This document shows positions 3,063-60,088 of a DNA stretch of 64,000 nt, one piece after another. Position 1 is the stretch's first letter. Every line of letters begins with the position of its first letter. A program made the position numbers and the translations under genes. Source of the DNA: a virus; IMG/VR virus record IMGVR_UViG_3300026519_000009, positions 1 to 64,000 of that record; one strand, written 5' to 3'. The notes below the pieces were generated by a model that had not been told where the DNA came from, did not search any database, and worked only from the letters and a program-made list of their open reading frames with translations.

Positions 3063-3723
3063 CCAAGTGGCCGGATAGACACCATATTAAATACACAATG
3101 ATTAAGTGAATTTAGTTCTTGACTTGACATTTAACTATGGTATCATAACTATATGAAAAGAGCAATCATTCCTGATGATAAAGCCATGAAGACTTTAATA
3201 ATCCGTGTCAAGGACAACAAGCGCAAGGTTTTAAAGCAAAAGGCGTTTGAAGTCAATCAGGTGTGGAATGATGCAAATCATAAATGGTCAACCAAGATAG
3301 TAAAAGAAAACGAATTAATAGCGATTGGTAATGTTAGTGCGTCTAAGTTAGCAAAAACCAAGATGGCTAAATCCGTATTAGACGCAGGTTGGTATCAACT
3401 AAAGAACATGCTCGATTATAAATCGAAAGCGATGCGATGCATGTTTGTTGAAGTCAACGAATCGTACACCACCCAAACTTGTTCGACGTGTCAAAAAATA
3501 ACTGACACGAGTCCGAAAGGTAGATCAGGCCTTGGAATAAGAGAATGGACGTGTTCCGGGTGTGGAACAAGGCATGATCGTGATATCAATGCAGCAACGA
3601 ACATTCTCCGCTTGGGAAGTCAAGCGCTGGTAGCAGGAGTCTGTGGAAACACAGAAGACACAATGGGTGACCATTGTGCGAATCCACCACCAAATCTTTG
3701 ATTTGGTGGTGGATTCGCTTCAA
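3063..3723 (+). mobile_element. Internally deleted IS200/IS605 (IS1341-like) element with truncated tnpB
   Basis: TTTAT|CCAAG left end; promoter TTGACT-N16-TATCAT; ORF 3153-3701; right hairpin followed by TTCAA. Confidence 0.85.
3153..3701 (+). pseudogene. tnpB: tnpB with in-frame internal deletion (RuvC-I missing)
   Basis: N-terminal KTLIIRVKD fused to AKSVLDAGW...VNESYTTQTCSTC...WTCSGCG..HDRDINAATNI. Confidence 0.85.
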
Positions 3724-3754
3724 AACAATCTATTACATAGGAGAATCTAAGAAA

Positions 3755-4630
3755 ATGAAAATATTAATGGTAGGCATTACCGCTATTTCACTACTATTGC
3801 TGGCGAATATAGCAGTTGGAAGTAGTACCTCCGGTTGGGGAACAAAACATGTGCATAACTCGAAATGTAATCACACAATTAACAAGAATAGAAACGTTAA
3901 TAAAAACATGAATGTTAACAAGAATAGAAACGTTAATAAAAACATGAATGTTAACAAGAATAGAAACGTTAATAAAAACATGAATGTTAACAAGAATAGA
4001 AACGTTAATAAAAACATGAATGTTAACAAGAATAGAAATATTAATCGAAGTAATAACAATCTGAGGACAACAAGCGTTGCCAAAATTAATGGTTCAGGTA
4101 ATAGTAAAAATTACAACAAAACTACCAGTTCGGCAAATGCAACGGGTGGTTCGGCAAATGCAACGGGTGGTTCCGCACAACAAAAACAAAGCCAATCACA
4201 ATCGTTGAATAATTCAGGAAATTCGTCGGCGACAGCGGTGGGTGGTGATGTTTTAGCCAACGGTGCAATTCAGATATCTGACAATTCTAGCACAGTATAT
4301 AAGGCAGCGCGGATTCCTGTAAATACGGCATGGGCAGCCCCATTGGTGGCAAGCGATGATACTTGCATGGGCAGCACTAGTGCTGGTGGACAAGGCATTA
4401 CTATTGGGTTAAGTTTTAGCACAACTTGGAGTGATTCCGACTGTGTTGTTCGTAAGGATGCACGTTTTTTGCACAATACACATCGTCCAGACATTGCGTT
4501 ATCATTAATGTGTTCTAAGAAATCCGTTAAGGAAGCGGTTAGGAGGGCAGGTAGCGACGCTGAAAAACGTAGTTGTGGTCTATTAGAACCGGCACCAACA
4601 GTAACCGAAGAATATGGCGAAAGGGGTTGA
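3755..4630 (+). CDS. Secreted low-complexity Asn-rich repeat protein
   Basis: GGAG RBS; signal peptide; (NKNRNVNKNMNV)n; Cys-containing C-terminal domain. Confidence 0.7.
   Translation: MKILMVGITAISLLLLANIAVGSSTSGWGTKHVHNSKCNHTINKNRNVNKNMNVNKNRNVNKNMNVNKNRNVNKNMNVNKNRNVNKNMNVNKNRNINRSNNNLRTTSVAKINGSGNSKNYNKTTSSANATGGSANATGGSAQQKQSQSQSLNNSGNSSATAVGGDVLANGAIQISDNSSTVYKAARIPVNTAWAAPLVASDDTCMGSTSAGGQGITIGLSFSTTWSDSDCVVRKDARFLHNTHRPDIALSLMCSKKSVKEAVRRAGSDAEKRSCGLLEPAPTVTEEYGERG
3881..4038 (+). repeat. 36-bp tandem repeat, about 4.4 copies
   Basis: AACAAGAATAGAAACGTTAATAAAAACATGAATGTT, perfect copies. Confidence 0.95.
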
Positions 4631-4639
4631 TAACCCAAT

Positions 4640-4690
4640 GATATTTGCTATCAATAATATTTGATAGCAAATATCAGCTTGTTTTTTGTT
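4640..4690 (+). terminator. Intrinsic terminator-like hairpin
   Basis: GATATTTGCTATCAA...TTGATAGCAAATATC followed by a T-rich tract. Confidence 0.6.
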
Positions 4691-4744
4691 TTGATAGTGA
4701 TATAGTAAGATTTAATCTTCATTCATACAACAAATTAATAATTT

Positions 4745-5389
4745 ATGGTGACACCAATGTTTAAAATATTTTCAATATTATCTGTTTTTTACATATTAGT
4801 AGGTTGCGCAAGCACCACACCACTTCGTAGCGTTCATTATATAGCTGATGATTGGATTGTGGCTGGTATGGTTGAACAATCAAAAATATTTGTCCACACC
4901 CGAAATTTAGGCAATTTTAAAGAAACCATTGTAAATTCAGAAACTACGTTTTCCACATATGTGATTAAGCACGGGGATACTTTATCCCGAATTTCAAAAC
5001 TGATGTATGGTTCTACCGAATATGCTGGTGCAATTGCGTTTCACAACGATATCGATAATCCCAATGAAATTATCGTTGATGAGCCTATCCGAATACCATT
5101 TATTAATACCACGGAACATGATGTCGTTATTAATAAATGGGAAGTCAGATATGTGAACGCAAGTGACGTATCATTATGTATAAATGTTACCTTCATCAAC
5201 AATGATTATGCAATCAACATAGCGGATGGGTGGTACCATTTAGAACCAACCAGTACCATATACGTTGGTGATATTACGCAAGAATATTGGGAACTGGATG
5301 AAGCTATCGTTACATTGGATGATGCAGCATGGGCGGTCAACATCATCGAAGTGGTAGATTATTCCAAACAAACAGGTTGTAAATTTTAA
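4745..5389 (+). CDS. LysM-domain lipoprotein
   Basis: Lipobox LVGC; LysM YVIKHGDTLSRISKLMYG...NDIDNPNEI. Confidence 0.8.
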   Translation: MVTPMFKIFSILSVFYILVGCASTTPLRSVHYIADDWIVAGMVEQSKIFVHTRNLGNFKETIVNSETTFSTYVIKHGDTLSRISKLMYGSTEYAGAIAFHNDIDNPNEIIVDEPIRIPFINTTEHDVVINKWEVRYVNASDVSLCINVTFINNDYAINIADGWYHLEPTSTIYVGDITQEYWELDEAIVTLDDAAWAVNIIEVVDYSKQTGCKF

Positions 5390-5419
5390 TAACAAGAATA
5401 TATTATTAAGGGGTGGCAC

Positions 5420-6499: not shown

Positions 6500-6637
6500 T
6501 GGACGAATTGATAATTGTAAGCTACATCATCAGCAACAAGTTGGTATTACTAACTTGTTACCGAAACACTACACCCAATTTTAACTTGCCAATTTGATGG
6601 TGTAGTCTAATTTCATTTCTAAAAATCATCGACACCA

Positions 6638-6696
6638 TTGAAGCAATCACCACCAATTCAGCAAGCTGAATTGGTGGTGATATTTCGGCAACTTGT
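6638..6696 (-). mobile_element. Palindromic mini-element copy
   Basis: TTGAAGC-AATCACCACCAATTCAGC-aa-GCTGAATTGGTGGTGAT-ATTTCGGCAACTTG; a further decayed copy may lie at about 6552-6614. Confidence 0.8.
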
Positions 6697-6701
6697 GTAA
6701 A

Positions 6702-7067
6702 TTAATTTTTGGGAGTTTTTCCCATTAATCTAGCATTTAGTTTAGATAAAATGTTACTAATAGACTTACGTTTTGATATAGCTGCTTTTCGATTTATCAC
6801 GCCTTTTTTGGTTCGCATGATTTTCTTTCCCCTGCGTACCTTTTTGGGGTCTTTGCGCGTAGCGCAACTACCCGGCGATCCTACTAAACGATTTTTCTTT
6901 GGGCCAGACATACAACGATATTTTTTTACCAATTTCTGACCCTGGCGTTTCCATTGACGAACAGCAGCTTCAGATAGAATATTATCATCGCTATCTAAAT
7001 ATACTTCTTCAAACACGCATTCTGTTTCAAATATCACATCTTCCACTTTCATCGTTATATATTCCAA
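6702..7067 (-). CDS. Hypothetical protein with acidic N-terminus and very basic C-terminus (possible prohead-core/internal protein)
   Basis: LSE-type putative protease site followed by a Lys/Arg-rich region. Confidence 0.5.
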   Translation of the reverse strand: MEYITMKVEDVIFETECVFEEVYLDSDDNILSEAAVRQWKRQGQKLVKKYRCMSGPKKNRLVGSPGSCATRKDPKKVRRGKKIMRTKKGVINRKAAISKRKSISNILSKLNARLMGKTPKN

Positions 7068-7077
7068 TAAGTAAATA

Positions 7078-7332
7078 TTATTTTTCTTTTAAAGATAAAT
7101 TCTGCTTTGCACGAATCAACTGTTGTTTTAATTTTTCAATTCTAAGCTTTTCGGATTTATTTGGATCATCAGTCTGTTTAATCGCCCGCTGGTCATCAAT
7201 GCCCTGCGCCAGTTGTTTCTTACGATAGCGTTCAGGATCACGGGCAGCTTGTTTAACATCCGCCATTGCTTGCGTTGGATCATCACTAACGGTGAGTTCA
7301 GTCAAATATTGAATAAATGTTAAATGTTTCAT
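7078..7332 (-). CDS. Small protein with CTS-like N-terminus
   Basis: MKHLTFIQYLTE; start overlaps upstream stop (ATGA). Confidence 0.55.
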   Translation of the reverse strand: MKHLTFIQYLTELTVSDDPTQAMADVKQAARDPERYRKKQLAQGIDDQRAIKQTDDPNKSEKLRIEKLKQQLIRAKQNLSLKEK

Positions 7333-8366: not shown

Positions 8367-8401
8367 ATAACTATTCCTATATAACTGTATATTCTATTTA
8401 T

Positions 8402-8829
8402 CTAAAATGCAGAAATACCACCGCCAAATTCAGCGAGCTGAATTTGGCGGTGGATTCGCATAATGATCACACATTATGCTGTCGGCAACTGTTGGCAACC
8501 TTCCGTGTTCCGTTGGTAGCCCATAGACACCTCCTACGATCGTTTCGCTTCACAAGTGGAGAATGTTCATCGCTGCATTGACAACGCGCTCATGTATTGT
8601 TCCACGCTTGATTGACAACAAACGCCTTTTGAATCAATACTTTGCGTTTGTTGTCATTGACACGAAACTTTAATGTCTTCATGACTTTATTGTCGGAATG
8701 AATGCACTTTTTCACATAAACGGTGTACCATAGTTAAATGTCAGATCAAGAACTAAATTCACTATGGTGCCTATCCAACCACTTCCAAATCAGCAAGATG
8801 AATTTGGAAGTGGTATTCCGGTAACTTGG
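8402..8829 (-). mobile_element. Decayed tnpB element with a left end on both sides, between divergent genes
   Basis: Reverse-complement similarity to 3063-3723; hairpins at about 8418-8453 and 8779-8813; both ends abut ATAAATA motifs. Confidence 0.85.
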
Positions 8830-8836
8830 ATAAATA
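8830..8836 (+). promoter_or_regulatory. Putative T4-like late promoter (ATAAATA)
   Basis: Motif recurs upstream of structural genes (12554, 23699, 26064, 45831 and several minus-strand sites); resembles T4 TATAAATA. Confidence 0.6.
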
Positions 8837-8859
8837 GAATAAATTAATGGATATTTAAT

Positions 8860-21500: not shown

Positions 21501-23632
21501 AATCACCGGGTACATTCAATAACAAACTATACATTCGACATGATCTAGATGCAGATGCAATTGCAATTACTCATTTTAATAACACAACCAATTTATTAGA
21601 AACGTTGGTATTGGGGGTTGACTATAATATTATTAACAATAACATAATTGAATATATTATTGGACCACCAAGAGATTCAATTACAATCTGGGGAATGTTA
21701 CAGAATAATGATGCACAATCACCTGCACGAATTATTGATCACGCCTCGGAAACGCAAATTTCTCCCATTCAATTCTTTGATCCGGCACGGGGTATACATT
21801 ATTCTAATGCTATTCATAATATTGATTTGTTGAATGATACCGATCCCGCGCAATATACGAATACCATTAAAAATCAACCAATGGGTTCACCAGCAACCAC
21901 AGTTATAAATTCCACAATTTGGGAAAAATCATTTATTGGAACGACTTGGTGGAACACCAATAATTTAGACTATGTTCCTTATTATAGTAAAGAAATGCTA
22001 CCTAACACAACCGAACGATTCCGCAATTGGGGTGCGTTGGCTGATTGGTCAACCGTTTCCATATTTGAATGGGTTGAGTCAAACGTTCCACCGGATGAAT
22101 GGGATATTCTAGCGTTAAGTGAAGAAGGTGATTTATCAATACCAGAACACATACGCAAGTCAGGAACCGCTCGGCGCGTGTTATTTGAACAAAATAATGC
22201 AGGGGGTTTTATTGTTGCAGTTGATAAAATCGAAGAACAATATGTGGCGACTGAAGGAACAGAAACAGCAACCACGTTTGAATTTTCAGTTCCAGTTGGA
22301 AACTTTAAAGAAACGGGTAGTCCGCTCATGTATATTGTTGATGTATATATTAATGGAAAATTATATAAAGAGAATGATATCTTAACCTTTCCATATATTG
22401 TCGATAAGGTAAACATTAAAGAAGCCGATATTATTCACTTCGTTCAACCGATTCCAACCGATCAGACTATAATTGATGCTGAAATAATAGCGGGTAATAT
22501 GCGACAGGAGTATGAATTTTCCAGAATAACAACCTTTAATGAAATAGGCACGGAAGTAACAACATATTATTTTTGGGTAGAAAATAAGAAAACTAGACCC
22601 ATTAATCGGAATCGTTCAATGTCAATATCTGAGGCCGCAACCCAATTAATAGACATTCCTTCGGCACATATGTTTTTTCAAGAAGTACGACCGACCGAAA
22701 CAATAACATTGGATGATACAATACTACCACGAACCGAATTACATACGGTAATTGGTGGTAGTCCGATAGCTACCTTTTATCCGACAGATTTGCCAATTGC
22801 GTCAACCACCAATCTTTTAGTGGAAGTTAATGGCGTGGATTTACCGAATAATGGTATATATTTTACAGTGGGGGGGTCGCCCAATGGAATTACAATGATA
22901 AACCCACTCCCAAGTGGTAACAATTTAATGGCAGGTGACATTATACGCATATCATATAATGGAGTGAATACCAATTCACTAATATTACCATATCGTCAAA
23001 CCCAATGTATTATTCGTGGATTGCAAGGTATAGTGAATGCGGATCGTAGATATACTATTAGGTTCACGCGAGACTTCACTTTGCGTGATAACTTAACTAT
23101 TGTTGATAATGATGAACATATACAATTAAACAACGTACACGAAGAATGGAAGTTATTCAGGGAAAGTCAGCAATTTAACATTGATCGATATATGTGGGAT
23201 AATATAACGGAATCCATTGTTAAATTTAAGCTATTGCAACCAAGCGTGCGCGTTCCATCATTTGAGCGCGAATTATATGATTTACAATACAACACTGATA
23301 CACAATATGGTCTGGAAGACGGACAAGCCTTCGTAAATGGTGAGTTGGCGCTGGGTAGCGTATTGGGATATTTAAATGATCCAAATGTGGACTTTTCGCC
23401 AATAGATATTAATGCCTTTTTTAATAACAATAGTTTTGATACACCTGCTGAAATAATTATTGCGATGGATACTATATATAATACATTTTTATTCACCGAT
23501 GTGAATCGAATATTCTTCTCTGTGTTGGCTGATGCTTTTAGTACAAAATCTAAATACCCAGGATTGTTTAAAACATCAATGGTAAGTTTACATGGGGTGC
23601 AACCATTTCAAACCGCGTTATTTGATGATTAA
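12587..23632 (+). CDS. Giant virion structural (baseplate-associated) protein, 3681 aa
   Basis: Uninterrupted ORF with GTG start and GGAG RBS inside the baseplate cluster; repeated beta-rich modules. Confidence 0.8.
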   Translation: MPSDNKTDYMIKFMDLLELLPEPYQSDVNISVVNNLFNRFLTKKETVRVSGYIGVGNQNALTPRRIKENDIHRQAFQLQPILYDKIGTIEHMASWKDIQNETTRLGINIDDFATWGASETFNWVPPIDINKIINYRDYYWVDTVGSQPQYITVRSRCAVATSLANFWGQIITQYGELFPITEIREIDDTSALQTYSIVSINTGTGNVVITGDATTDIVNGNFFNISSTLNNNGTYQVNMAPVYDGVTNTTTLDVSGLIADENIGLVTLRRYDKLVIGPNDNTPTGDYSTLFEEGFVFFMRQPTNPEQNNQFVTVISSTFDPNNANTIVKIGLTTTDNTVAASSMVSLVEQNAIYVDARNCQCGVGVDGWDDGVLWDDNPSNPIWGDAEGALGSPIPDGISDYQNLINRISNAGPPALPGIQNELWFDTIGDILYQYDTVGGWKIIWNSFSTLLSDVTGQVLWDLSQNCDEAIRIPAMDQWILENKWVHKNDITNFASVRRATQPIIEYDWDLELNEWTFTKYRWGYRSETNGTFIETTELPPFIELEEIVWWELDTTDITNSTVILDSRYGDQSACFAANTRFHIGNTIINEVDYVEYKKPSIASMFPYRTYVKFKTPIVGSTGDFSIGTPNSLSLTPVVTKQGDLWGGYGVHWIFLGANDTVPVPHQTDNPDVAILDTALVSTIGSPPIYETRESLYAQEFQLLAPSTTILELSNIVPTNDTRSLQRKALYNFDDIRVYLSDITNGNIVRQFGTYEEIGEVVVDIIGIDDVLNEFIIGEDYSTLYTAGDTIRLQENNTVGTQDYTVAGGASNPNRIRVTTALAGISITGQIVNISNPVTTELYPNIDFVNTRNISIYVRGIRFLTPVLGGQNVTIEVGEASINELDRHALRVRTIEDEAQYNIVGDLAISTIKYRKVEQVKTSDNQYPLFDIFTATGEAANRANPIFGYKTSNTAPINQTGLRIVFDASTLVYEFDQFILDADNSELFAYRDYSNKKTDFWYNPETNEMLFWHGTEWSSRTAMSEHYRNAVISSIEPSLIDRAINGLYWYNTTTNTLFIRSIDPISNIGTWNPILDIDTTTTDTNLQTIWKGGLNNDQYVPERVDWLNRTNSEYNTEMSAFIDGRVNTLLTGDTTLSIADATTQASIDWFTSQENVLSPTGIWVGDWEIPDPLYHNNLHENKKCITSRDLLTHFTTIIESQPTIPGFNGDKNAMFNLIPTTGVNFALGGTIKEFNDGFDTFLSSTFVNNVTPRRLIEFAHDQYESLLNSIKESYRANAVRLFTDLSPNNIVNISGYISNEIIAIHELNDAAAFIYGDSTTFNDIPGANDLGVRNWIATLPYLRLLHRRLPVRIINEVLSLDEIIHHDGHRGAYSLTDTAENVIVQLIINTDDNRNGIDTLGRNSIANPPNNIADFAAEFNTDANNRGGVYWWNTTTSILYRYTVAESGTNTPILDYPDGTLWMDLTLGNEVLRIKSTSTSGVISWDVADGLSVGDGRFHNGTTVNDFNTATVSTWQEVNLNNLLGDLIFELETRLYNNAPNNPQLSYNTSLVETTYPNDHALYLEQAFLDHVSQLNIQTPYQNTAFNISDPFTWNYKHSAGGGGFAILEADGLTNSFLISGNQLFFFDPCSASATGSPITYPACVPGGTTATFYIKNSGGNDGIWTTLSSTVGDFTAFYDILTNTTRIFVQGNVMDDATGIIHIGLLPSQISSTTPNNLNDGSESGGDWRDLYTKLYNTPYPNLEPWKLQGYIDKPTWWDAEYLNTNALQWGDRVWKYKHGFELISADNLSNDSVDGIHGSFNISGNFNTVFTTGHSFTIDSSIGSPNNDGTYITGMREIITNVNIGSAGTASIEIDDVSNLATAIYLPSMIFSVIQTPVLPAINNTITKTYSITSVNKIGSIFTIAVAEEILVGDIIPATSVINGALYLPTSNITKVKIAGAVTTSSGNGRLIKSDSFGLGMWENIRIGVIPPNREYPNGIVGVTGNPSIDTLNGLSVPDLPRFSYFSVNIDNSNVSSDGGMTTYAPDGLLPPFWDHTQQFGTTLISFDNLIRTVFFNFSTEIITPNIDFIFGDAGPVEWEWRVSSQFLYDQLTIAYRIDPVRYVSSTFGFNLTTIAGLQIDRNIRNTPSHTRTTFHGDIANNTPVVSNGTNQWYVNFNRFTGYDSNFSDFNQLWTQWTAPLSYQFASFIDTPSLSIGHRFVSISEFDYNIAAKRSPGVNDYWLDAFNVNIIQIPFDIQRYDNQLEWRFELSTNINISREINYYDVRNYQFYANPITNECLLYTWEIESVNAFNKEFTILGDQTYVFSAGREFTISTSSGNDGTYTTTRARYDVNSNTTTITVNSIITSTVANGLITAKYRSYMWDTGDSIYLSTAETLPIPLRGDNANGLTEYFIIKISDTVFKIANTPQDAITNTPIVITSTGRRDQFVGEITSTFLAPNSTTNWRIYRIDESSSRKFNTPYQVQGFQTLIDIVRGYATFANDVGWVFNEDNSLRDPDTTRVVNWQVELERLITYAYGNRQLRRSINDRYEVSVNSSTDIWTFIEPNQSFITGDIITVLSSNSIFPVPIANGLNYFIIRDSITTFRISATRQDALNGIALNISASSGVGTLQISTPNTNANIIQPFELNAFRNAAWLNTPTGIVSNVITGPSEDIRTNQTIFNQNGQQISESHLRVYRQDKQTKIQIIDVDNPVSNNNNPLLSQEYSNINLGGLHLFTDSYEHIMIFNNYNTDGVLLYDPFIGLNVSKYEMLFNKQPEFLHRPSVGGYTIETFFNQGTNLTENIEASIENLRFAHDTYTNLESNLMTTHSRLSLGYEGITDYLLNLNLSEKSQFIFWRGLIQYKGSRNAVQAFTHSRRFIDAQIDDFWAIKVGEFGSVKEKEYPEIFVTTSDARSNELRLEFIDNDALDTSVESTFTPIKLSNEERWYNQPDQVHILRDKGNALFFDMIVNNSIVCSLTPGSPSNLIESPGTFNNKLYIRHDLDADAIAITHFNNTTNLLETLVLGVDYNIINNNIIEYIIGPPRDSITIWGMLQNNDAQSPARIIDHASETQISPIQFFDPARGIHYSNAIHNIDLLNDTDPAQYTNTIKNQPMGSPATTVINSTIWEKSFIGTTWWNTNNLDYVPYYSKEMLPNTTERFRNWGALADWSTVSIFEWVESNVPPDEWDILALSEEGDLSIPEHIRKSGTARRVLFEQNNAGGFIVAVDKIEEQYVATEGTETATTFEFSVPVGNFKETGSPLMYIVDVYINGKLYKENDILTFPYIVDKVNIKEADIIHFVQPIPTDQTIIDAEIIAGNMRQEYEFSRITTFNEIGTEVTTYYFWVENKKTRPINRNRSMSISEAATQLIDIPSAHMFFQEVRPTETITLDDTILPRTELHTVIGGSPIATFYPTDLPIASTTNLLVEVNGVDLPNNGIYFTVGGSPNGITMINPLPSGNNLMAGDIIRISYNGVNTNSLILPYRQTQCIIRGLQGIVNADRRYTIRFTRDFTLRDNLTIVDNDEHIQLNNVHEEWKLFRESQQFNIDRYMWDNITESIVKFKLLQPSVRVPSFERELYDLQYNTDTQYGLEDGQAFVNGELALGSVLGYLNDPNVDFSPIDINAFFNNNSFDTPAEIIIAMDTIYNTFLFTDVNRIFFSVLADAFSTKSKYPGLFKTSMVSLHGVQPFQTALFDD

Positions 23633-23698
23633 CCAAATAGCCGAAATGCCACCACCAATTCAGCAAGCCGAATTGGTGGTGGCATTTCGGAAAATTAG
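23633..23698. mobile_element. Palindromic mini-element with two left ends
   Basis: CCGAAATGCCACCACCAATT...AATTGGTGGTGGCATTTCGG, then AAAATTAG|ATAAATA. Confidence 0.8.
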
Positions 23699-23740
23699 AT
23701 AAATATAATATGCAACATATAAAATAACCGGATATTCTAA

Positions 23741-28563: not shown

Positions 28564-29238
28564 TCAATTTTCATCATTTTCACCATTCATTATGTTTTCT
28601 ATTATTAAATCAAGTACCGAACTAATTTCGGTACGCACATCCTCAATTGAACCGGTTGCATCAATAACATGATATCGGTCGGTGTTTGCTGCTGCACGAC
28701 TGAGGTATGTGGTTCTAACACGTTCAATAAAGTCGGTTGGTTCGCGTTCAATACGATCCTTTTCCTCTTCCACTCTGCGCACCTGTCTAACGCTGGCAGG
28801 TAAATCCATAATAAAAGTAAGGTCTGGGCGTAATTCACCAAGCACCCAATCTTCTAACAACGCAATTCTATTATGTGGAATCCCGCGCCCACCACCTTGA
28901 TATGCATATGTAGAATCGGTGAATCTGTCACATAACACCCAGTCGCCCATAGATAATGTTGGTTCAATTACGCTTTGAATATGTTGCGCCCTCGCTGCAA
29001 ACAACATTAATAATTCGGCATCATTTACAATATTAGGTTGATCAGCGTTTAGTAGTATTGCCCGCAACTGTTCACCTAACAGTGTTCCACCTGGTTCACG
29101 GGTATGCCTTATATTAATTCCCATAGGCGCTAAGCGGGCCGATAAATATTCTATAGCATATCCCATTTGTGTACTTTTACCACCACCATCCCCGCCATCT
29201 ATCGTTATAAACATACCACGCTTAATTGTACTATTCAT
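28564..29238 (-). CDS. tmk: Thymidylate (dTMP) kinase
   Basis: GGDGGGKST P-loop, TREPGGT, DRFTDSTYAYQGGGRG. Confidence 0.95.
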   Translation of the reverse strand: MNSTIKRGMFITIDGGDGGGKSTQMGYAIEYLSARLAPMGINIRHTREPGGTLLGEQLRAILLNADQPNIVNDAELLMLFAARAQHIQSVIEPTLSMGDWVLCDRFTDSTYAYQGGGRGIPHNRIALLEDWVLGELRPDLTFIMDLPASVRQVRRVEEEKDRIEREPTDFIERVRTTYLSRAAANTDRYHVIDATGSIEDVRTEISSVLDLIIENIMNGENDEN

Positions 29239-30353: not shown

Positions 30354-30362
30354 TATGATTTA

Positions 30363-31384: not shown

Positions 31385-31435
31385 TTATTATTATTATTGC
31401 ACTATTATGGTTAATATATATTTATATGTTTATCA

Positions 31436-34093: not shown

Positions 34094-34153
34094 TTGAAGC
34101 GACTACCACCAAATCAGCAAGCTGAATTTGGAAGTGGTATTCCGGCAACTTGG
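34094..34153 (-). mobile_element. Palindromic mini-element copy
   Basis: TTGAAGCGACTACCACCAAATCAGC-aa-GCTGAATTTGGAAGTGGTATTCCGGCAACTTGG. Confidence 0.85.
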
Positions 34154-34158
34154 GTATT

Positions 34159-37673: not shown

Positions 37674-37711
37674 GTATTAATTATTCCAATTATTATTATT
37701 ATTATTATTAT

Positions 37712-37772
37712 CCAAGTTGCCGGAATACTACTTCCAAATTCAACAAGCTGTATTTGGAAGTAGTCGCCTCAC
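37712..37772 (+). mobile_element. Palindromic mini-element copy
   Basis: ATTAT|CCAAGTTGCCGGAATACTACTTCCAAA...TTTGGAAGTAG-TCGCCTCAC with a compensatory stem change. Confidence 0.85.
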
Positions 37773-38871: not shown

Positions 38872-38911
38872 TTAGTATCCATTGATAATCATACATTGTA
38901 TTGTTATTTAT

Positions 38912-39357
38912 CCAATTTGCCGGAATACCACTTCCAAATTCAGCTTGGTGAATTTGGAAGTGGATGGATAGGCACCATTAGGACGATCTTGCACTTGTAT
39001 ATATTGCTTTAATATTTCAATTGGGGCAATAATTAAGTGAATTTAGTTCTTGAATTGATATTTAACTATGGTACACTGTTTATATGAAAAGAGCAATCAT
39101 TCCCGACAAAATAAAGCCATGAAGACTTTAAAAATTCGCGTCAATGACATCAAGCACACGGTTGCCAACAGTATTGAACCAAAGGGGGGGGTTGCGGTTG
39201 CCAACAGTCAATCGGGTGTTGATGGACACAAAACATAAATGATCAACAAAAATAGTAAGTGAAAACGAATTAGTGAAAACACCGAAGACATAATGAGCGA
39301 CCATTGTGCGAATCCACGTTCAAGCGCAGATCGCTGATTTGGTGGTGGTCGCTTCAA
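38912..39357 (+). mobile_element. Decayed IS200/IS605 tnpB element with both hairpins
   Basis: TTTAT|CCAATTTGCC; left hairpin; tnpB promoter and 5' remnant; right hairpin; TCGCTTCAA supplies the stop of the next gene. Confidence 0.88.
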
Positions 39358-41720: not shown

Positions 41721-43685
41721 TTACCCAAATACCCGCAATTCTTTAAACCTTCGTCGAATCAAGGTACCACCAGAACTAAATAAAATCGCTCGCGCGTTCG
41801 TTCCATCCGATATAATAGTGTACATACGCTGTGAATGTGGGAGGTTTCCGGTCCCCGTGGCAGGGGGTGTGGATGAGACATTATTACCATCAAAAATTTT
41901 AGTCCAGGCACTATCTATAAATACTTCAAATATAACTTGACCATTTATCAAATCTTCGTTTACTACCTGATACATTCCAGCTGGAAATACGTATGTAGAG
42001 CCAGGGACATTTGCTAATGTTCGTAAAGTATATACATTAGTAAAACTAAAACCACCAGCAATAAGATTATCAACATATTGCTTATTTGCAGCATCCGAAT
42101 TATTAGTCGGTGTGTCCACGTTAACAATTTTAGCGTTTGTCATATCTAATTCACTATCAAATTGAACTGGCCCTGTAATTCTGGCATCGCCAACCACATG
42201 TAACTTATTTCCTGGTGCCGGTGTTCCTATTCCAACGTCACCAGTCGTGGTTATTCTAAACTGTTCGGTTGCTACACCAGCACTTCCGGTTTCTATTACA
42301 AAGTCCCCATAATTTGCACGTAGTCGTAGTATATCGCCAAAATCATTGTGCTGTATAAGACTACGAGGTAGAACATTTCCAGCTTGATGGAATTGTATTG
42401 CAACATTTCCATTCGAGTTATTGTTCTCTAGGCGCAATGCTTCACCATTGCCGCCCGCTAAGGTTAGGACGTGTAACTTTGCGGCTGGTGCTGTCACCCC
42501 CATTCCAATATCACCACTAGACGTTATAACTAGATTTTTATTACCATTTGTTGAAAAACTAAGTGTTTGTCCAAGGTCAAATTCAATTGAATTATCACCA
42601 CCTGCGGAATTACCAAAGTTTATTAATCCGGTGGAAGGGTCGGTTAACGCATTAGTAGCCCGTATTGCGCCATTAATAGTAACTTCACCACTAGGCGCTA
42701 TAAGTAGTTTTTCATTACCATTTGTTGAAAAACTAAGTGTTTGTCCAAGGTCAAATTCAATTGAATTATCACCACCTGCGGAATTACCAAAGTTTATTAA
42801 TCCGGTGGAAGGGTCGGTTAACGCATTAGTAGCCCGTATTGCGCCATTAATAGTAACTTCACCGGTGGTCTCAAAAATATTTAGACGTATTTGATTATTT
42901 TTAACTATATCGAAACTATTACTATTATTAATTATATAATCACTGGCACCTAACCCGAAATTAATTCGACCATCCCCACTATTGTTAACTGTCAGGTCAT
43001 CATTGATTGTAGTTGCACCATTCAATTCAGTATCACCAACTACTTCAAATGCTGTGGATGGTGATGGTTGATTAATTCCAACTGACCCATTACTTAACGC
43101 GGTTAGTACACTCCCCCCTGCACTTTGTAAATCAATAATAGCACCTGCCCCCTGTTGATTTACAATAAGCAATGTTCCCGGTTCATTCGCTTGCATAATA
43201 TCAGCAACATCGCTGCGTAAAAATTGAGTACTATCAAGGCCGTCCAACAACGTTGCATCACCACCAGTCGGAATTGACCATATATTACCTAATGAAAAGG
43301 TATAAGTAACATTTGCAGAAGTATTGAACCATTGTTGTCCAATAACAGGATTAGTTATTCCATTACCAAGACCAAGATCATTTTCATCTTTTGGAAGAAC
43401 CGGATCGGTCACAGGGTCATAATCCATTAACATCGTAGCTGGATTATAATCACCGAAAACCTTTGCTGGGCAAGCATAATTCTCCAACAATCTGAATATA
43501 TTTTGATTTACGCCCTGTCCCCAACTTACAGTACCAAATCCATATAATGATAAGTCGGAATCCCGCGCAATCCCGCCTGCACCATTTAATTCACCAGAAC
43601 CAATAGTAAATGATGATGAAGTACGATTTGCAACTGATTCTGAATCATCATATGCTGTATGTTTTATTAAATATGTTTCAGCCAT
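41721..43685 (-). CDS. Tail-fibre-like virion protein (N-terminus paralogous to previous gene)
   Basis: LYGFG...QNIFRLLENYA; DATLLDGLDSTQFLRSD; GxVGIGT repeats. Confidence 0.75.
   Translation of the reverse strand: MAETYLIKHTAYDDSESVANRTSSSFTIGSGELNGAGGIARDSDLSLYGFGTVSWGQGVNQNIFRLLENYACPAKVFGDYNPATMLMDYDPVTDPVLPKDENDLGLGNGITNPVIGQQWFNTSANVTYTFSLGNIWSIPTGGDATLLDGLDSTQFLRSDVADIMQANEPGTLLIVNQQGAGAIIDLQSAGGSVLTALSNGSVGINQPSPSTAFEVVGDTELNGATTINDDLTVNNSGDGRINFGLGASDYIINNSNSFDIVKNNQIRLNIFETTGEVTINGAIRATNALTDPSTGLINFGNSAGGDNSIEFDLGQTLSFSTNGNEKLLIAPSGEVTINGAIRATNALTDPSTGLINFGNSAGGDNSIEFDLGQTLSFSTNGNKNLVITSSGDIGMGVTAPAAKLHVLTLAGGNGEALRLENNNSNGNVAIQFHQAGNVLPRSLIQHNDFGDILRLRANYGDFVIETGSAGVATEQFRITTTGDVGIGTPAPGNKLHVVGDARITGPVQFDSELDMTNAKIVNVDTPTNNSDAANKQYVDNLIAGGFSFTNVYTLRTLANVPGSTYVFPAGMYQVVNEDLINGQVIFEVFIDSAWTKIFDGNNVSSTPPATGTGNLPHSQRMYTIISDGTNARAILFSSGGTLIRRRFKELRVFG
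42540..42863 (-). repeat. 150-bp identical direct repeat with 174-bp period inside fibre gene
   Basis: 42540-42689 equals 42714-42863. Confidence 0.9.
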
Positions 43686-43889: not shown

Positions 43890-44558
43890 TTAATGTATTG
43901 TTGTTCCTTTTTTAACGAAAGGAACTGTCGTTATTGATTTATTATCAATATTTTCTTGTTCGGTCAATTTACTTGGGGGTGTATCATATAAGTTTGATAA
44001 TATTTCACGTATTTTACTGTCTTTCGAGGATGATTTACTATTCTCTTTAACCGGTTCTTTTACCTTCTTAACCGGTTCTTTTACCTTCTTAACCGGTTCT
44101 TTTACCTTCTTAACCGGTTCTTTTACCTTCTTAGCCGGTTCTTTTACCTTCTTAATCGGTTCCTTAATTGATTCGTTATCCGTCTTAATAGGTTCTTTAG
44201 CTTGGTTAATAGATTTATTGACATTGGATGGATTCAATACCAACTTCGGACGCGAAACATAAACATCATGCGTTCCTACCACATTAATATTTCCGTTCAT
44301 TGGACAAAAATGGTATCCATCTACAATAATATCAATATGGAAGTTATATGTGGTAGTTTCCAGCATTTCTAATGGCGGAATTATTACTGTCCATGAACGC
44401 TTGCTATTCTCGACTCGTTTACATTCAAATTTAAGGTCCATTTCGGAGGCTTCTATAACAAAATAAACACACATATCTTTCGTTTCGATATTAGTTATGT
44501 CTACTTCAAAATCCAAAATATTTTCTTTTACGTTTGAAATTGATATTAAATTATCCAT
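43890..44558 (-). CDS. Hypothetical protein with KEPVKKV tandem repeats
   Basis: 222-aa ORF; 21-bp tandem repeat at about 44045-44165. Confidence 0.7.
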   Translation of the reverse strand: MDNLISISNVKENILDFEVDITNIETKDMCVYFVIEASEMDLKFECKRVENSKRSWTVIIPPLEMLETTTYNFHIDIIVDGYHFCPMNGNINVVGTHDVYVSRPKLVLNPSNVNKSINQAKEPIKTDNESIKEPIKKVKEPAKKVKEPVKKVKEPVKKVKEPVKKVKEPVKENSKSSSKDSKIREILSNLYDTPPSKLTEQENIDNKSITTVPFVKKGTTIH

Positions 44559-47330: not shown

Positions 47331-47349
47331 ATGCCTATAATATAGTTAT

Positions 47350-47410
47350 CCAAGTTGCCTGAATACTACTTCCAAAGTGGGCTAGCTGAATTTGGAAGCG
47401 GTCGCTTCAA
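47350..47410 (+). mobile_element. Mini-element supplying the TGA stop of the Nudix gene
   Basis: GTTAT|CCAAGTTGCC...GTCGCTTCAA. Confidence 0.85.
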
Positions 47411-50249: not shown

Positions 50250-50324
50250 TTACTGTTGGCAACCCTAAATTTCCGAAATGCCACTTCCAAATTTGGTTTG
50301 CTGAATTGGAAGTGGTCGCGTCAT
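50250..50324 (+). mobile_element. Mini-element copy with a 10-bp insert at its left junction; supplies a TGA stop
   Basis: CCACTTCCAA...TTGGAAGTGG-TCGCGTCAT. Confidence 0.75.
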
Positions 50325-51766: not shown

Positions 51767-51778
51767 GTGTATATTTAT

Positions 51779-51842
51779 CCAAGTTGTCGGAATACCACCA
51801 AATTAGCAAGCTGAATTTTGAAGTGGTATTCTGGCAACTTGG
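51779..51842. mobile_element. Mini-element with two left ends
   Basis: TTTAT|CCAAGTTGTCGGAATACCAC...GTGGTATTCTGGCAACTTGG|ATAAA. Confidence 0.85.
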
Positions 51843-51844
51843 AT

Positions 51845-51882
51845 AAAAAAAGCAGTGATATACCGAAAAATATCACTGCTTT
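51845..51882 (-). terminator. Intrinsic terminator
   Basis: AAAAAAGCAGTGATAT...ATATCACTGCTTT. Confidence 0.7.
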
Positions 51883-54661: not shown

Positions 54662-54672
54662 ATTTCCCCCAA

Positions 54673-54975
54673 TTACGCCAATACAATATCGGACACTTGC
54701 TGTAAATAAGCATCAATCATTGGCTGTGGAACTGTTGTTACTTCTGACATAATTGCGGTCTTTAACATTTTTACCGTAGTTTCCGTAGTAAACTCTGGAT
54801 TATTTGCACTTACCATAAATGGTAACATGCCCAATGATACAGAACCATCTGGCGACTGCTGCATAACCAATACCCTAGCCCTTTCAAGCATATAGTAAGT
54901 ACTATTATCTTCTACGAGAGTTGCAATTACTTCTTCACCGCTGATTGTTTTAAGTGCCAATACTGTTGTTGTCAT
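54673..54975 (-). CDS. Small phage protein, Sm-like fold candidate
   Basis: LKTISGEEVIATL...YLQQVSDI pattern common in T4-like phages. Confidence 0.55.
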   Translation of the reverse strand: MTTTVLALKTISGEEVIATLVEDNSTYYMLERARVLVMQQSPDGSVSLGMLPFMVSANNPEFTTETTVKMLKTAIMSEVTTVPQPMIDAYLQQVSDIVLA

Positions 54976-55016
54976 CCTTATCTCCTATTTATTATTATAA
55001 ACATATAATATCAATT

Positions 55017-55583: not shown

Positions 55584-55596
55584 AAAACCTATTTAT

Positions 55597-55663
55597 CCAA
55601 GTTGCAGCAATACCACTTCCGATTTCAGCTTGCCGATTTGGAAATGGTATTGCTACAATTTGG
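55597..55663. mobile_element. Mini-element with two left ends
   Basis: TTTAT|CCAAGTTGCAGCAATACCA...TGGTATTGCTACAATTTGG. Confidence 0.8.
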
Positions 55664-55704
55664 GTAACTAACAATAGTCAATCAAACACTAATCCAGACA
55701 ACGA

Positions 55705-57148: not shown

Positions 57149-57177
57149 AGATACATTCCATAAGTAGTTGAATTAAA

Positions 57178-57519
57178 TTGAAGTGACCACCATCAAATCA
57201 GCGAGCTGTGTTTGGTGGTGGATTCGCACAACGGTCGCCCATTGTGTTTTCTGCATTTCCACAGACCCCTGCTAGTAGCGCTTGGTTTCCCAAGCTGAGA
57301 ATGTTCGTTGCTACATTTACATTGCAATCATGCATTGTTTCACACCCGGAGCATGTACATTCTCTTATTCCAAGACCTGAACTACCTTACTGATAATAAC
57401 ATAGTTAAATGTCAAGTCAAGAATTAAATTCACTTAATCATTGTGTGTTTAATATGTTGCCTGTCCAACCACCATCAAATCAGCACGATGATTTGATGGT
57501 GGTTGGACAGGCAACTTGG
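57178..57519 (-). mobile_element. Deleted IS200/IS605 element retaining promoter region, tnpB 3' end and both hairpins
   Basis: Reverse-complement similarity to 3063-3723; TTGAA at 57178; AACTTGG|ATAAA at 57519. Confidence 0.88.
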
Positions 57520-57880
57520 ATAAATATTCAATAACAGCCTCTTCGTCTATTGTTAGTGATCCACTTGCATTGGCGCGGCGCAACGTAGTTTCAAAGGTCA
57601 TTATCATTTCTTTTGAGTTTATATATTCTAATATGATTTCACACGCGGCGCGTGTGAAATCATATTGTGAATTGTCCTCATCATGTTTGTAGTCAATTGC
57701 CAACGCCGCCATAAACATGATATTTTGTACCACTGGCACCGTGGTTGGCATTAAAGTGAACCATCCAGGATCATTTTTAATAAAATTGGTGTATAAAATT
57801 TTATCATCATCCGTTAATGGCACGCAGCTTGACATTTGTTTAACAAATCGTTCTTCATATGTTTTTTGCAATGCAGTCAT
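57449..57880 (-). CDS. Hypothetical protein with element-derived C-terminal extension
   Basis: Reads through the left end (EYL|SKLP...); excision gives EYLF*. Confidence 0.6.
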   Translation of the reverse strand: MTALQKTYEERFVKQMSSCVPLTDDDKILYTNFIKNDPGWFTLMPTTVPVVQNIMFMAALAIDYKHDEDNSQYDFTRAACEIILEYINSKEMIMTFETTLRRANASGSLTIDEEAVIEYLSKLPVQPPSNHRADLMVVGQATY

Positions 57881-57888
57881 ATTATATC

Positions 57889-57999
57889 CGATAGTTGCAT
57901 TTTGAATATGAATATATTGTAAACTATTACAATATATTATTCAATGGTTTTGGACTATATATTTCACTTGTTCTACTAGATTCCAATAAAATCCATTAT
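57889..57999 (-). repeat. Second copy of the 3' end region of the 2657-3038 tnpB remnant
   Basis: ATAATGGATTTTATTGGAATCTAGTAGA...CATTGAATAATATATTGTAAT...TTCAAAATG.AACTATC shared with 2918-3038. Confidence 0.8.
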
Positions 58000-58059
58000 C
58001 CAAGTTGCCGAAATACCACTACCAAATCAGCAAGCTGAATTTGGAAATGGTCGCTTCAA
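58000..58059 (+). mobile_element. Palindromic mini-element copy (near consensus)
   Basis: ATTAT|CCAAGTTGCCGAAATACCAC...TGGTCGCTTCAA. Confidence 0.88.
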
Positions 58060-58069
58060 TATGTCAATA

Positions 58070-58846
58070 TTAATGTTTTGGTTGCCAACGTTCTAAATAC
58101 TGCCCGATATCGAATAACACCGAATTTACATTGTGAAATAACCAACTGTTGTTATTGGGTTGGCGTGACCCATGTTGGTCTAATGCACCGAACACGGCTG
58201 TGCTTTGTTCAGCATCCCATATATACCATTGCACTATTTCTAGGTTCCGTTCGGTTATTATTTTATGTAGTTCAGTCTGACCGGTTTTATGAATAAAGAC
58301 CCCTATTATATTGGGCGAACTAGATTTCATTCTATATAAAATGAATATGGGCGTGATTTCCTTAGCCGCGTTGATTTTAGATTGCACGGTTTTGCCCAAA
58401 AAACCGGGCCAACCACCATTTTTCGTAAAATCACGATAGCCACGAATTGGATTTCTTGGTATCCCTTCGGGTATGTTACCCTTGTCAAATTCTATTTTGA
58501 ATTCTTCGATTGTTTTTAGGCCAAGTTTATGTATTAAGGCCACCGCATCCCAATATGGCATTCGCTTGGCGCGTGTAACCGCGTGTGGCGCGTCCGCTGA
58601 GAATATGTTGTTGGTATCTAAAAACGTATTCCAGTTATCCCATTCTATATAAACCTCACTTGGATTTGCAGGCATTCCACCCGGTTTATAGTTACGTATC
58701 CATGTCCGGTATTGGCGGTATGATTTAATGCCTACCCGTCTTGCATATTGCGCAGCAAGGTCATATGGCATCCACCTCCAGTCTTTTGGTTTGCTATTTT
58801 CCAATGCTTTGGGAAGATATGTGCGTGATTTGCGTTTTTTAACCAT
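58070..58846 (-). CDS. Protein with two 'phage-integrase repeat'-like DNA-binding units
   Basis: MPY..A...R..GIKS...PANP..VY..W..W..FL repeated twice. Confidence 0.6.
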   Translation of the reverse strand: MVKKRKSRTYLPKALENSKPKDWRWMPYDLAAQYARRVGIKSYRQYRTWIRNYKPGGMPANPSEVYIEWDNWNTFLDTNNIFSADAPHAVTRAKRMPYWDAVALIHKLGLKTIEEFKIEFDKGNIPEGIPRNPIRGYRDFTKNGGWPGFLGKTVQSKINAAKEITPIFILYRMKSSSPNIIGVFIHKTGQTELHKIITERNLEIVQWYIWDAEQSTAVFGALDQHGSRQPNNNSWLFHNVNSVLFDIGQYLERWQPKH

Positions 58847-58857
58847 ATAATTACCAA

Positions 58858-59358
58858 CTAATTGTTGTGTGAATTAATGAACAGTCCGCCAATAATTGTG
58901 GTTGCGCGATGTGATTGTGGTAGTATATTAAATGAACAGTCAAAATCACCATCAATTTCTTGTGGTGATCCTGTCAACGATCTTAGGTTATTAGCATATA
59001 CATGAAAAAACTTTCCGACTTCGGATGGACCGCCAACTAATGAAGATATCATATTCATAGAACAATCAAAGCCACCAGCAACTTCCTTCGGCGCACCTAA
59101 TAATGAGTTCAGTTCGTTAAATGAACAATCAAAATCGCCACCGACTTCACGCGGTGAACCTTTTAGTGTGGTCAAGCTATTATTTGAGCAATTAAAATTA
59201 CCATAAACAATTCGGAACTGTACTGGTATTTCGACTAATCCTTTAAAATCTAAATAAACATCACCTTTCACCGTTACCGTACTTGTATCATTAATAGTAT
59301 AATTTATAATACCCATTTCATCAAGCCATCTTATAATTTCTTTTTTATTAGTCATCAT
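58858..59358 (-). CDS. LRR-like solenoid repeat protein, paralog of 55705-56166
   Basis: EIPVQFR.VYG.FNCS.N.LT.LKGSP.EV. Confidence 0.8.
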   Translation of the reverse strand: MMTNKKEIIRWLDEMGIINYTINDTSTVTVKGDVYLDFKGLVEIPVQFRIVYGNFNCSNNSLTTLKGSPREVGGDFDCSFNELNSLLGAPKEVAGGFDCSMNMISSLVGGPSEVGKFFHVYANNLRSLTGSPQEIDGDFDCSFNILPQSHRATTIIGGLFINSHNN

Positions 59359-59370
59359 ATTGATATTTAT

Positions 59371-60088
59371 CCAAGTTGCCGAAATACCACTTCCAAATTC
59401 ACGTGGTCGGTGGTATCTTTCGGTTCAAGTACTTGTTGACAAACAAGTATCAACTGGCACCGGACATATAGGAATTGACTTGGGGTTAAAGACCATTGCT
59501 ACGTGTTCAAATGGCGAAATATTAGAACGTAAGGAATATTATCGTAAATCCGAAAGCAAGTTGGGCATTGCCCAACTTGCAAAAAAGAAACGCCAAGTAA
59601 AAACAATTCATGCGAAAATCAAGAACCAACGGATGGACACAAATCATAAATGGTCAACCAAGATAGTAAAAGAAAAACGAATTAATAGCGATTGGTAATG
59701 TTAGTGCGTCTAAATTAGCAAAGACTAAGATGGCTAAATCCGTATTAGACGCAGGTTGGTATCAACTAAAGAACATGCTCGATTATAAATCGAAAGCGAT
59801 GCGATGCATGTTTGTTGAAGTCAACGAATCGTACACCACCCAGACCTGTTCGTCGTGTCAGGAAATAACTGAAACGAGTCCGAAAGGTAGGACAGGTCTT
59901 GGAATAAGGGAATGGACGTGTTCCGGGTGTGGCACATTGCATGATCGTCATATCAATGCAGCAACGAACATTCTCCGCTTGGGAAGTCAAGCGCTCGATG
60001 GAGGAGTCTGTGGAAACACAGAAGACACAATGGGTGACCATTATGCGAATCCACTTCCAAATCAAAGATTTGGAAGTGGTCGCTTCAA
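59371..60088 (+). mobile_element. tnpB: IS200/IS605 element remnant with the largest tnpB fragment (5' deleted, frameshifted)
   Basis: TTTAT|CCAAGTTGCC; IGIDLGLKT RuvC-I; extra A near 59678; zinc ribbon; right hairpin + TTCAA. Confidence 0.9.

What the first reader, a model, noticed from the sequence alone, without database searches (positions are those of the whole stretch)
3063..60088. Five tnpB-deleted elements retain the 3' scaffold region: possible stand-alone omegaRNA loci with different guides
Seen: the copies at 3063, 8402, 38912, 57178 and 59371 carry different internal deletions. All keep some or all of the terminal segment GGAAACACAGAAGACACAATGGGTGACCATTGTGCGAATCC plus hairpin, and four keep the tnpB promoter region. 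Established: the TnpB omegaRNA derives from the right end, and its guide is the flanking DNA. Inference: with an intact TnpB in trans, each locus would target its own empty allele in co-infecting relatives (homing or competition). The targets would lie at promoter-adjacent TTTAT sites.
Basis: inference. Interest (0 to 1): 0.7.

Follow-up and report, generated by a model that had tools for sequence, protein, structure and literature searches.

The report
Broken TnpB transposon copies in phage
A large T4-like phage carries five broken copies of one IS605-type jumping gene; three still hold a complete-looking guide-RNA module that an intact TnpB nuclease found on a sister contig could borrow, but nothing shows that they are used, and gene-less guide-RNA elements of this kind are already described.

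Summary
All five copies are real and each has a different internal deletion: A 3063-3723(+), B 8402-8829(-), C 38912-39357(+), D 57178-57519(-), E 59371-60088(+). They are relics of one IS605-family element with divergent Y1 tnpA and tnpB, inserted after TTTAT.

Only A, D and E keep the whole ~129-nt 3' scaffold (five stems) and the TTCAA end. A covariance model scores them 156, 122 and 157 bits, against 148 for an intact copy. C (59 bits) and B (50 bits) are wrecked. Only A and D keep a sigma70-like promoter.

The contig has no intact tnpB or tnpA. The same metagenome does: an intact 382-aa cognate TnpB on a T4-like replication-module contig, and an intact TnpA on another phage contig. Both contigs carry the same repeat family.

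The scaffold is no better conserved than the ORF remnants (0.90 against 0.90-0.92). Stem changes look neutral. No empty target alleles were found, and RNA data could not be obtained.

Best reading: these are decaying non-autonomous IS relics. A and D, and less clearly E, resemble the omegaRNA-bearing PATE-like elements already proposed by Meers et al. 2023.

This scan has reported comparable gene-less omegaRNA elements in many other phages.

The parts
3063..3723 (+). Copy A. LE flank without its hairpin, remnant of the tnpA 5' end with the tnpB promoter, an in-frame fusion ORF (3153-3701, 182 aa: TnpB aa 1-42 plus about 240-382), a full scaffold, the RE hairpin and TTCAA. TAM TTTAT at 3058-3062.
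3119..3146 (+). Sigma70-like promoter of copy A (TTGACT, 16 nt, TG-TATCAT; 10 of 12).
3593..3723 (+). Predicted omegaRNA scaffold of copy A (stems S1-S5). The putative guide would be 3724-3739.
   Evidence: 155.9 bits
8402..8829 (-). Copy B. Intact LE hairpin, a degraded promoter, TnpB aa 1-~45, a decayed partial scaffold with a 30-nt insert that contains TTGCCAACAG, and a terminal hairpin. There is no TTCAA: the right end is an inverted LE-like flank, so TTTAT lies on both sides.
   Evidence: 50.3 bits
38912..39357 (+). Copy C. Intact LE hairpin, about 50 nt of the tnpA 3' end, a degraded promoter, TnpB aa 1-~35, and two TGCCAACAG motifs. Only stems S3-S4 of the scaffold remain. The 5' arm of the RE hairpin is destroyed, and TTCAA is kept.
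   Evidence: 58.8 bits
57178..57519 (-). Copy D. Intact LE hairpin, promoter joined directly to the last 210 nt (TnpB aa 323-382), a full but diverged scaffold, an RE hairpin with one mismatch, and TTCAA. It is the only copy with both ends intact. TAM at 57520-57524. The putative guide would be 57162-57177.
57393..57420 (-). Sigma70-like promoter of copy D (TTGACT, 16 nt, TG-TATTAT; 10 of 12).
57178..57312 (-). Predicted omegaRNA scaffold of copy D.
   Evidence: 121.6 bits; 0.82 identical to the intact copy's scaffold
59371..60088 (+). Copy E. Only the 5' arm of the LE hairpin, no promoter, TnpB aa 160-382 with a frameshift near 59670-59683, a full scaffold, the RE hairpin and TTCAA. TAM at 59366-59370.
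59960..60088 (+). Predicted omegaRNA scaffold of copy E. Stem S4 has one C-A mismatch. The putative guide would be 60089-60104.
   Evidence: 157.2 bits

Best explanation
The five loci are decaying, non-autonomous deletion derivatives of one IS605-family insertion sequence. The full element runs: LE hairpin, Y1 tnpA on the opposite strand, a divergent promoter, a 382-aa tnpB whose 3' end and RE encode the omegaRNA, and TTCAA. It has colonised this jumbo T4-like phage lineage, inserting after TTTAT.

A tnpA-less derivative spread to several sites with TnpA supplied in trans. Each copy then lost a different internal piece. Three copies (A, D, E) still hold a complete-looking ~129-nt scaffold and RE. 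This reflects where the deletions happened to fall and how recent they are, not detectable selection. B and C are dead as guide-RNA genes.

If the intact TnpB found on a sister contig is made in the same infected cell, A and D could be loaded and direct cleavage of TTTAT plus right-flank sites. Both have a promoter, a scaffold and an RE. That would be the ordinary selfish behaviour already proposed for omegaRNA-bearing PATEs. This last step is inferred, not shown.
For: - Copies and deletion map.
- Pfam domains in the remnants: OrfB_IS605 and TNB.
- No intact tnpB or Y1 tnpA on the 76.6-kb contig.
- Intact tnpB with the same RE at L050:4-1152, on a contig with clamp loader, DNA polymerase and exonuclease genes and the same repeats.
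- Intact Y1 tnpA inside a sister copy at G001:49996-50361.
- Copies A, D, G1a, L044 and L050b share one tnpA-deletion junction (CCAT|ATTAAATAC) at different loci. This shows proliferation of a tnpA-less progenitor.
- Scaffold model scores separate A, E and D (122-157 bits) from C and B (50-59 bits) and from the mini elements (31 bits or less).
- Pairwise identity is 0.90 in the scaffold and 0.895-0.92 in the ORF remnants.
- One-sided stem changes: 7 keep pairing, 10 break it (my count).
- Other derivatives on sister contigs lack the scaffold altogether: L050b and L047b.
Against: - Right-end remnants cluster at guide-RNA size. Two solo REs (G002:8374-8514 and L047:~5128-5262) and the 3' piece of B all begin 130-150 nt before the RE end, just upstream of the scaffold.
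- Two other TnpB families on these contigs also survive mostly as 110-260-nt 3' fragments. Random decay does not obviously predict this. It would fit drive or selection acting on the omegaRNA module.
- D looks like a tidy cassette: promoter -10 box joined almost directly to the 3' 210 nt.
- The power of the conservation test is low (11 related sequences).
Confidence: 0.55

Rival explanations
1. A and D, and possibly E, are working protein-less omegaRNA loci. TnpB made from an intact copy elsewhere in the same phage genome loads their RNAs. It then cuts TTTAT plus flank in genomes that lack the insertion: co-infecting relatives, or for D the donor joint left after TnpA excision. Recombinational repair copies the element in.
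For: - Intact cognate TnpB and TnpA on phage contigs of the same sample.
- Full scaffolds, 82-93% identical to that of the intact copy.
- Promoters in A and D.
- Invariant D187, E300/E303 and D344 across 121 clade members. This argues for an active nuclease with a relocated RuvC-II Glu.
- Remnant sizes cluster at scaffold length in three families.
- The concept is accepted in the literature (PMC10055086; PMC13565253, Table 1).
Against: - No preferential conservation of the scaffold.
- Stem changes look neutral.
- B and C are defective.
- E has no promoter on its strand.
- The intact tnpB is not on this contig, and linkage to the same genome is unproven.
- No empty alleles or TAM-adjacent guide matches were found.
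- No RNA evidence is available.
Confidence: 0.3
2. The relics persist because the phage uses them as portable promoters. The sigma70-like promoter kept in A and D reads through the relic into the co-oriented gene just downstream: 3756-4630 after A, and the PcfJ-like gene 57148-56147 after D.
For: - A and D both lie directly upstream of co-oriented genes, with no terminator between.
- On sister contig L047, an LE-plus-promoter fragment with no RE lies directly upstream of what reads, by eye, as a tRNA gene (CAU anticodon; not run through the tRNA finder).
Against: - B and C have lost the consensus, and E has no promoter.
- The promoter region is also the tnpA 5' end, so it may be retained by history alone.
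- There are no expression data.
Confidence: 0.1
3. The copies are assembly artefacts: repeats collapsed or chimeric joins in a metagenome assembly.
For: Sister contigs break inside copies of this element. The repeats do therefore disturb the assembly.
Against: Each of the five copies has unique flanks on both sides, its own deletion junctions, and 7-20% divergence from the others. Artefacts would give identical copies or breaks.
Confidence: 0.03

Closest known systems
PATE-like non-autonomous IS200/IS605 elements that encode omegaRNAs (Geobacillus stearothermophilus; Meers et al. 2023, PMC10055086)
   Same: - Derived from IS605-family elements.
- No working nuclease gene.
- LE and RE hairpins, a TAM on the left, and an omegaRNA scaffold at the RE with the guide taken from the flank.
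- They would need TnpB, and TnpA, from another copy.
   Different: - Here only D keeps both ends. A and E have lost the LE hairpin, so they are immobile relics rather than mini-transposons.
- A and E still carry long ORF remnants.
- The host replicon is a lytic-type jumbo phage, not a bacterial chromosome.
- No RNA evidence.
IS605-group insertion sequences (Y1 TnpA plus TnpB; IS605/IS608/ISDra2 type)
   Same: - Y1 HUH transposase and TnpB.
- Subterminal hairpins and no inverted repeats.
- Insertion 3' of a fixed pentanucleotide, with the RE ending in TCAA.
- The omegaRNA overlaps the tnpB 3' end.
   Different: - tnpA and tnpB are divergent, and both ORFs run into the end hairpins.
- The TnpB belongs to a clade with Asn at the canonical RuvC-II Glu position and invariant Glu residues 40 aa downstream.
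- The phage RE has two extra stems (S3, S4) that are absent from the gammaproteobacterial relatives.
Free-standing homing endonucleases of T-even phages (Seg, Mob) and 'transposon non-restorative homing' (review PMC13565253)
   Same: The proposed outcome is the same: cleavage of the allele that lacks the element in a co-infecting phage, then repair from the carrier.
   Different: Recognition would be RNA-guided, and the nuclease would be encoded at another locus. None of this is shown here.

Membership tests
IS200/IS605 family, IS605 group | Y1 (HUH) TnpA transposase | tested here: met
   Absent from the window and its contig. A sister copy with the same LE and promoter encodes a full Y1_Tnp (136.8 bits, profile 1-121 of 121) at G001:49996-50361. 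Copy C keeps about 50 nt of its 3' end.
IS200/IS605 family, IS605 group | TnpB (OrfB_IS605 plus Cas12f1-like TNB domains) | tested here: met
   Remnants in A and E hit PF07282 and PF01385. The intact 382-aa homologue is at L050:4-1152. ISDra2 TnpB matches at E 1e-21.
IS200/IS605 family, IS605 group | Subterminal hairpins at LE and RE, no terminal inverted repeats, insertion 3' of a fixed short motif, conserved RE cleavage motif | tested here: met
   TTTAT precedes all five copies. TTCAA ends A, C, D and E. LE and RE hairpins show compensatory CC/GG to TT/AA changes.
omegaRNA-bearing PATE-like element | Both transposon ends intact, so TnpA can mobilise it in trans | tested here: not met
   Only D keeps both hairpins and both cleavage motifs. 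A and E lack the LE hairpin. C lacks the 5' arm of the RE hairpin. B lacks TTCAA.
omegaRNA-bearing PATE-like element | Complete omegaRNA scaffold next to the RE | tested here: inconclusive
   Met for A, E and D (156, 157 and 122 bits, against 148 for the intact copy). Not met for C (59) and B (50). The scaffold is defined by prediction only: 97.4% of cells are paired, with few covarying pairs.
omegaRNA-bearing PATE-like element | No protein-coding gene | tested here: inconclusive
   D, B and C hold no long ORF of the element. A keeps a 182-aa in-frame fusion that lacks the RuvC-I Asp. E keeps a 127-aa C-terminal ORF.
Functional TnpB guide RNA locus | Cognate intact TnpB in the same genome | tested here: inconclusive
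   None on the 76.6-kb contig, which CheckV rates 24% complete. One sits on a T4-like contig of the same sample that shares the repeat family. Physical linkage is unknown.
Functional TnpB guide RNA locus | Transcript covering scaffold plus about 16 nt of flank | not testable with these tools
Rfam has no matching family.
Functional TnpB guide RNA locus | A target (TAM plus guide match) exists in related genomes | tested here: not met
   No exact empty-site junction for A, D or E in IMG/VR. No TAM-adjacent near-match in the sister contigs. No close relative of the phage is available, so this is weak evidence.

The most novel reading that the evidence does not exclude
This jumbo-phage lineage runs a distributed RNA-guided homing network. 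One or a few intact TnpB genes serve many protein-less omegaRNA modules from three TnpB families. Each module drives its own locus, and the neighbouring phage genes, into co-infecting relatives that lack it. That would be an RNA-guided counterpart of the Seg and Mob endonucleases of T4. The clustering of right-end remnants at guide-RNA size would then be the footprint of this drive.
Probability: 0.1. Interest if true: 0.7.

Novelty: new member of a known kind. Interest (0 to 1): 0.3.

Why it matters
If A and D are really loaded by TnpB, a lytic phage would hold several RNA-guided 'marker exclusion' loci served by one nuclease. That would bear on phage-phage competition and on how guide-RNA modules separate from their nucleases, a step on the road to CRISPR-like arrays.

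As the evidence stands, the value is descriptive. It is a well-resolved example of an IS605 family invading a phage and decaying there. Intact TnpA and TnpB, tnpB-only copies, omegaRNA-only copies and single-hairpin mini forms all occur side by side in one sample.

Tried and rejected
No RNA or read evidence was obtained, and read laying was not used.
- Rfam gave no omegaRNA family match at gathering or permissive thresholds. Only hairpin noise appeared.
- The RE pattern scan of genome contigs gave 21 hits, close to the ~35 chance hits I estimated by hand. None aligned to the element. No bacterial host copy was identified.
- Apart from the window's own record, which the tool may leave out, the same pattern in IMG/VR found only two contigs, both from the same sample.
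- A search for relatives of a flanking phage gene found none, so orthologous empty sites could not be compared.
- Exact empty-site junctions for A, D and E were not found.
- Gammaproteobacterial relatives (44-57% aa identity) share stem S1 with covariation but lack S3 and S4. They could not be used to test the phage-specific stems.
- I considered an alternative pairing (UCUCC with GGAGG, enclosing S1). I dropped it because copy A breaks it, while the small hairpin S2 is kept by a compensatory change.
- I considered a retro-copy origin of the solo right ends. I rejected it because their 3' flanks do not carry another locus's guide.
Full report
**Setting.** The window is the first 64 kb of a 76.6-kb IMG/VR virus contig that CheckV rates 24% complete. 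GC is about 37%. The contig encodes gp25-like baseplate wedge, NrdA and NrdB, a ribosomal protein S21 homologue and a 3681-aa ORF. This is a T4-like jumbo phage with no close relative among deposited phages.

**Observation.** BLAST of the two longest copies against the whole contig recovers exactly five loci that carry tnpB or promoter material.
- Refined spans, from the printed sequences and LE and RE motif scans: A 3063-3723(+), B 8402-8829(-), C 38912-39357(+), D 57178-57519(-), E 59371-60088(+).
- All five follow TTTAT. A, C, D and E end in TTCAA.
- B ends in an inverted LE-like flank, so TTTAT lies on both of its sides.
- tblastn with a 382-aa full-length relative maps five different deletions.
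  - A: aa 1-42 fused in frame to about aa 240-382.
  - B: aa 1-~45 plus aa ~338-363.
  - C: aa 1-~35 and small pieces.
  - D: only aa 323-382.
  - E: aa 160-382 with a frameshift.
- Pfam confirms OrfB_IS605 and TNB domains in the remnants.

**What the full element looks like.** Pattern scans found sister copies only in contigs of one metagenome (Ga0256839 = IMG 3300026519).
- L050:4-1152 is an uninterrupted 382-aa tnpB with the same RE. Its contig encodes clamp loader, DNA polymerase and exonuclease and carries the same repeats.
- A copy at the end of contig G001 shows LE hairpin, a complete Y1 TnpA on the opposite strand (136.8 bits), the divergent promoter region and the tnpB start.
- The element is therefore an IS605-group IS with divergent tnpA and tnpB.
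- Copies A, D, G1a, L044 and L050b share one tnpA-deletion junction at different loci. A tnpA-less derivative therefore transposed several times with TnpA supplied in trans.
- The TnpB clade has Asn at the canonical RuvC-II Glu position, but invariant D187, E300, E303 and D344 across 121 members. This fits the RuvC-II-rearranged clades described in PMC10691335.

**The scaffold.** Folding and alignment of 11 right ends give five stems, S1 to S5, within the last ~129 nt.
- 97.4% of pair cells are paired, against 31-47% when partners are slid.
- Compensatory changes occur in one S2 pair and two pairs of the terminal hairpin. That hairpin is also the TnpA DNA site, so its covariation does not discriminate between RNA and DNA function.
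- S1 covaries between the phage copies and gammaproteobacterial relatives. Those relatives lack S3 and S4.
- A covariance model built on this structure scores the intact copy at 148 bits, A at 156, E at 157, D at 122, C at 59 and B at 50. The single-hairpin mini elements score 31 bits or less.
- A, D and E were in the training alignment. B and C were not.
- In C, stems S1 and S2 and the 5' arm of S5 are gone.
- In B, S1 is mutated to non-pairing, a 30-nt insert separates S3 from S4, and the cleavage motif is missing.

**Promoters.** A sigma70-like site (10 of 12, with an extended TG) is kept in A (3119-3146) and D (57420-57393). It is not kept in B or C. E has no candidate on its strand upstream of the scaffold.

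**Is the scaffold protected?** Mean pairwise identity is 0.90 in the last 120 nt, 0.92 in S1-S4, and 0.895-0.92 in three upstream ORF segments.
- Counting one-sided substitutions in stems keep pairing (all through G-U) and 10 break it. Transition-biased neutral change would give about this ratio.
- D, the most cassette-like copy, has 4 kept and 4 broken.
- Derivatives without any scaffold also exist on sister contigs. L050b joins the promoter and 25 codons to half of the RE hairpin. L047b is LE plus promoter only.

**A point in favour of the functional reading.**
- Two solo right ends (G002:8374-8514 and L047:~5128-5262) and the 3' piece of B all begin 130-150 nt before the RE end.
- An IS607-like family has a 299-aa, internally deleted TnpB at 30404-31303. 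It leaves four 164-259-nt 3' fragments on sister contigs.
- A third family (2657-3038) leaves 3' fragments at 57890-57999 and L044:1445-1591.
- This size clustering was noticed post hoc and remains unexplained. It keeps the selfish-drive reading alive.

**Targets.** The 16-nt right flanks of A, C, D and E have no TAM-adjacent near-match in any available contig. The reconstructed empty junctions of A, D and E are absent from IMG/VR. No close relative of the phage could be found to compare.

**Known context.**
- Meers et al. (PMC10055086) already describe PATE-like elements. They state that these 'often encode omegaRNAs' that need TnpB in trans.
- A 2026 review lists homing of transposons into co-infecting phages as a category (PMC13565253).
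- PMC10691335 notes TnpB branches enriched in viruses.
- This scan has reported comparable gene-less omegaRNA elements in many other phage genomes.

**Verdict.** The kind of element is already described.

Noticed in passing
window 30348-31420 (-), between nrdA (31436-33793) and nrdB (29235-30353): A second, IS607-like TnpB element. Its left end reads GG|CTGCCAACAGTTG and its right end CAACGG. The 299-aa ORF has an HTH, the RuvC-I Asp and RuvC-III. It lacks about 85 aa covering RuvC-II and half of the zinc ribbon, so it is an in-frame deletion. Its last 164-259 nt recur as orphan fragments on four sister contigs at 82-93% identity. One has a 20-nt LE stub.
   Followed up: partly
window 2657-3038 (+); 57890-57999 (-); L044:1445-1591: A third TnpB family survives only as a C-terminal 114-aa ORF with a TNB domain plus its downstream end. 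The last ~110-150 nt are repeated elsewhere. At 57997-58059 a single-hairpin mini element sits at the inner edge of the repeated fragment, after ATTAT, where the homology to 2919-3038 stops. It is not clear that it interrupts the fragment.
   Followed up: partly
about 25 sites, e.g. 6640-6699, 34094-34156, 37709-37771, 47347-47410, 57997-58059; palindromic forms at 23630-23701, 51776-51845, 55594-55666: About 60-nt single-hairpin mini elements made of the LE left flank, one hairpin and the RE end (TTTAT|...|TTCAA), plus LE/LE palindromes. They carry no scaffold: 31 bits or less with the scaffold model.
   Followed up: partly
window 8489-8497, 39163-39171, 39199-39207, 31373-31381, 50253-50261: The motif (T)TGCCAACAG after GG sits at deletion junctions inside copies B and C. 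It equals the first bases of the IS607-like element's left end. These may be stubs of that element, and they may have caused some of the deletions.
   Followed up: partly
G002:8374-8514; L047:5128-5262; window 8442-8605: Independent right-end remnants of the main family begin within a 20-nt window just upstream of the predicted scaffold. This is unexplained. It could mean selection or drive on the guide-RNA unit, or a deletion hotspot near the internal GATGTCAA motif. That motif equals the RE end of the gammaproteobacterial relatives.
   Followed up: partly
L047:~6830-7110 (-): An LE-plus-promoter fragment of the element, with no RE, lies directly upstream of what reads, by eye, as a tRNA gene (CAU anticodon; not run through the tRNA finder) on a sister contig.
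   Followed up: no
L050:1-1830: The one intact tnpB lies tail to tail with a 217-aa ORF that matches only a short 'DNA polymerase' PHROG. Its own RE hairpin has three mismatches. This copy may no longer be a good TnpA substrate.
   Followed up: no
window 2351-2653 (+): A phage-encoded ribosomal protein S21 homologue (PF01165, E 4e-15).
   Followed up: no
window 3843-4058; 42511-42858; 44026-44219: In-ORF tandem repeats: 18/36-nt units in ORF 3674-4630, just downstream of copy A; a 174-nt duplication; and 21-nt units.
   Followed up: no
left flanks of the copies, e.g. 8830-8840, 38905-38911, 59364-59370: Read on the opposite strand, the TAM and its flank give ATAAATA, which resembles the T4-type late promoter core and points away from the element. 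At E the neighbouring gene's start codon is only about 12 nt from the element, so a promoter role is doubtful there.
   Followed up: partly
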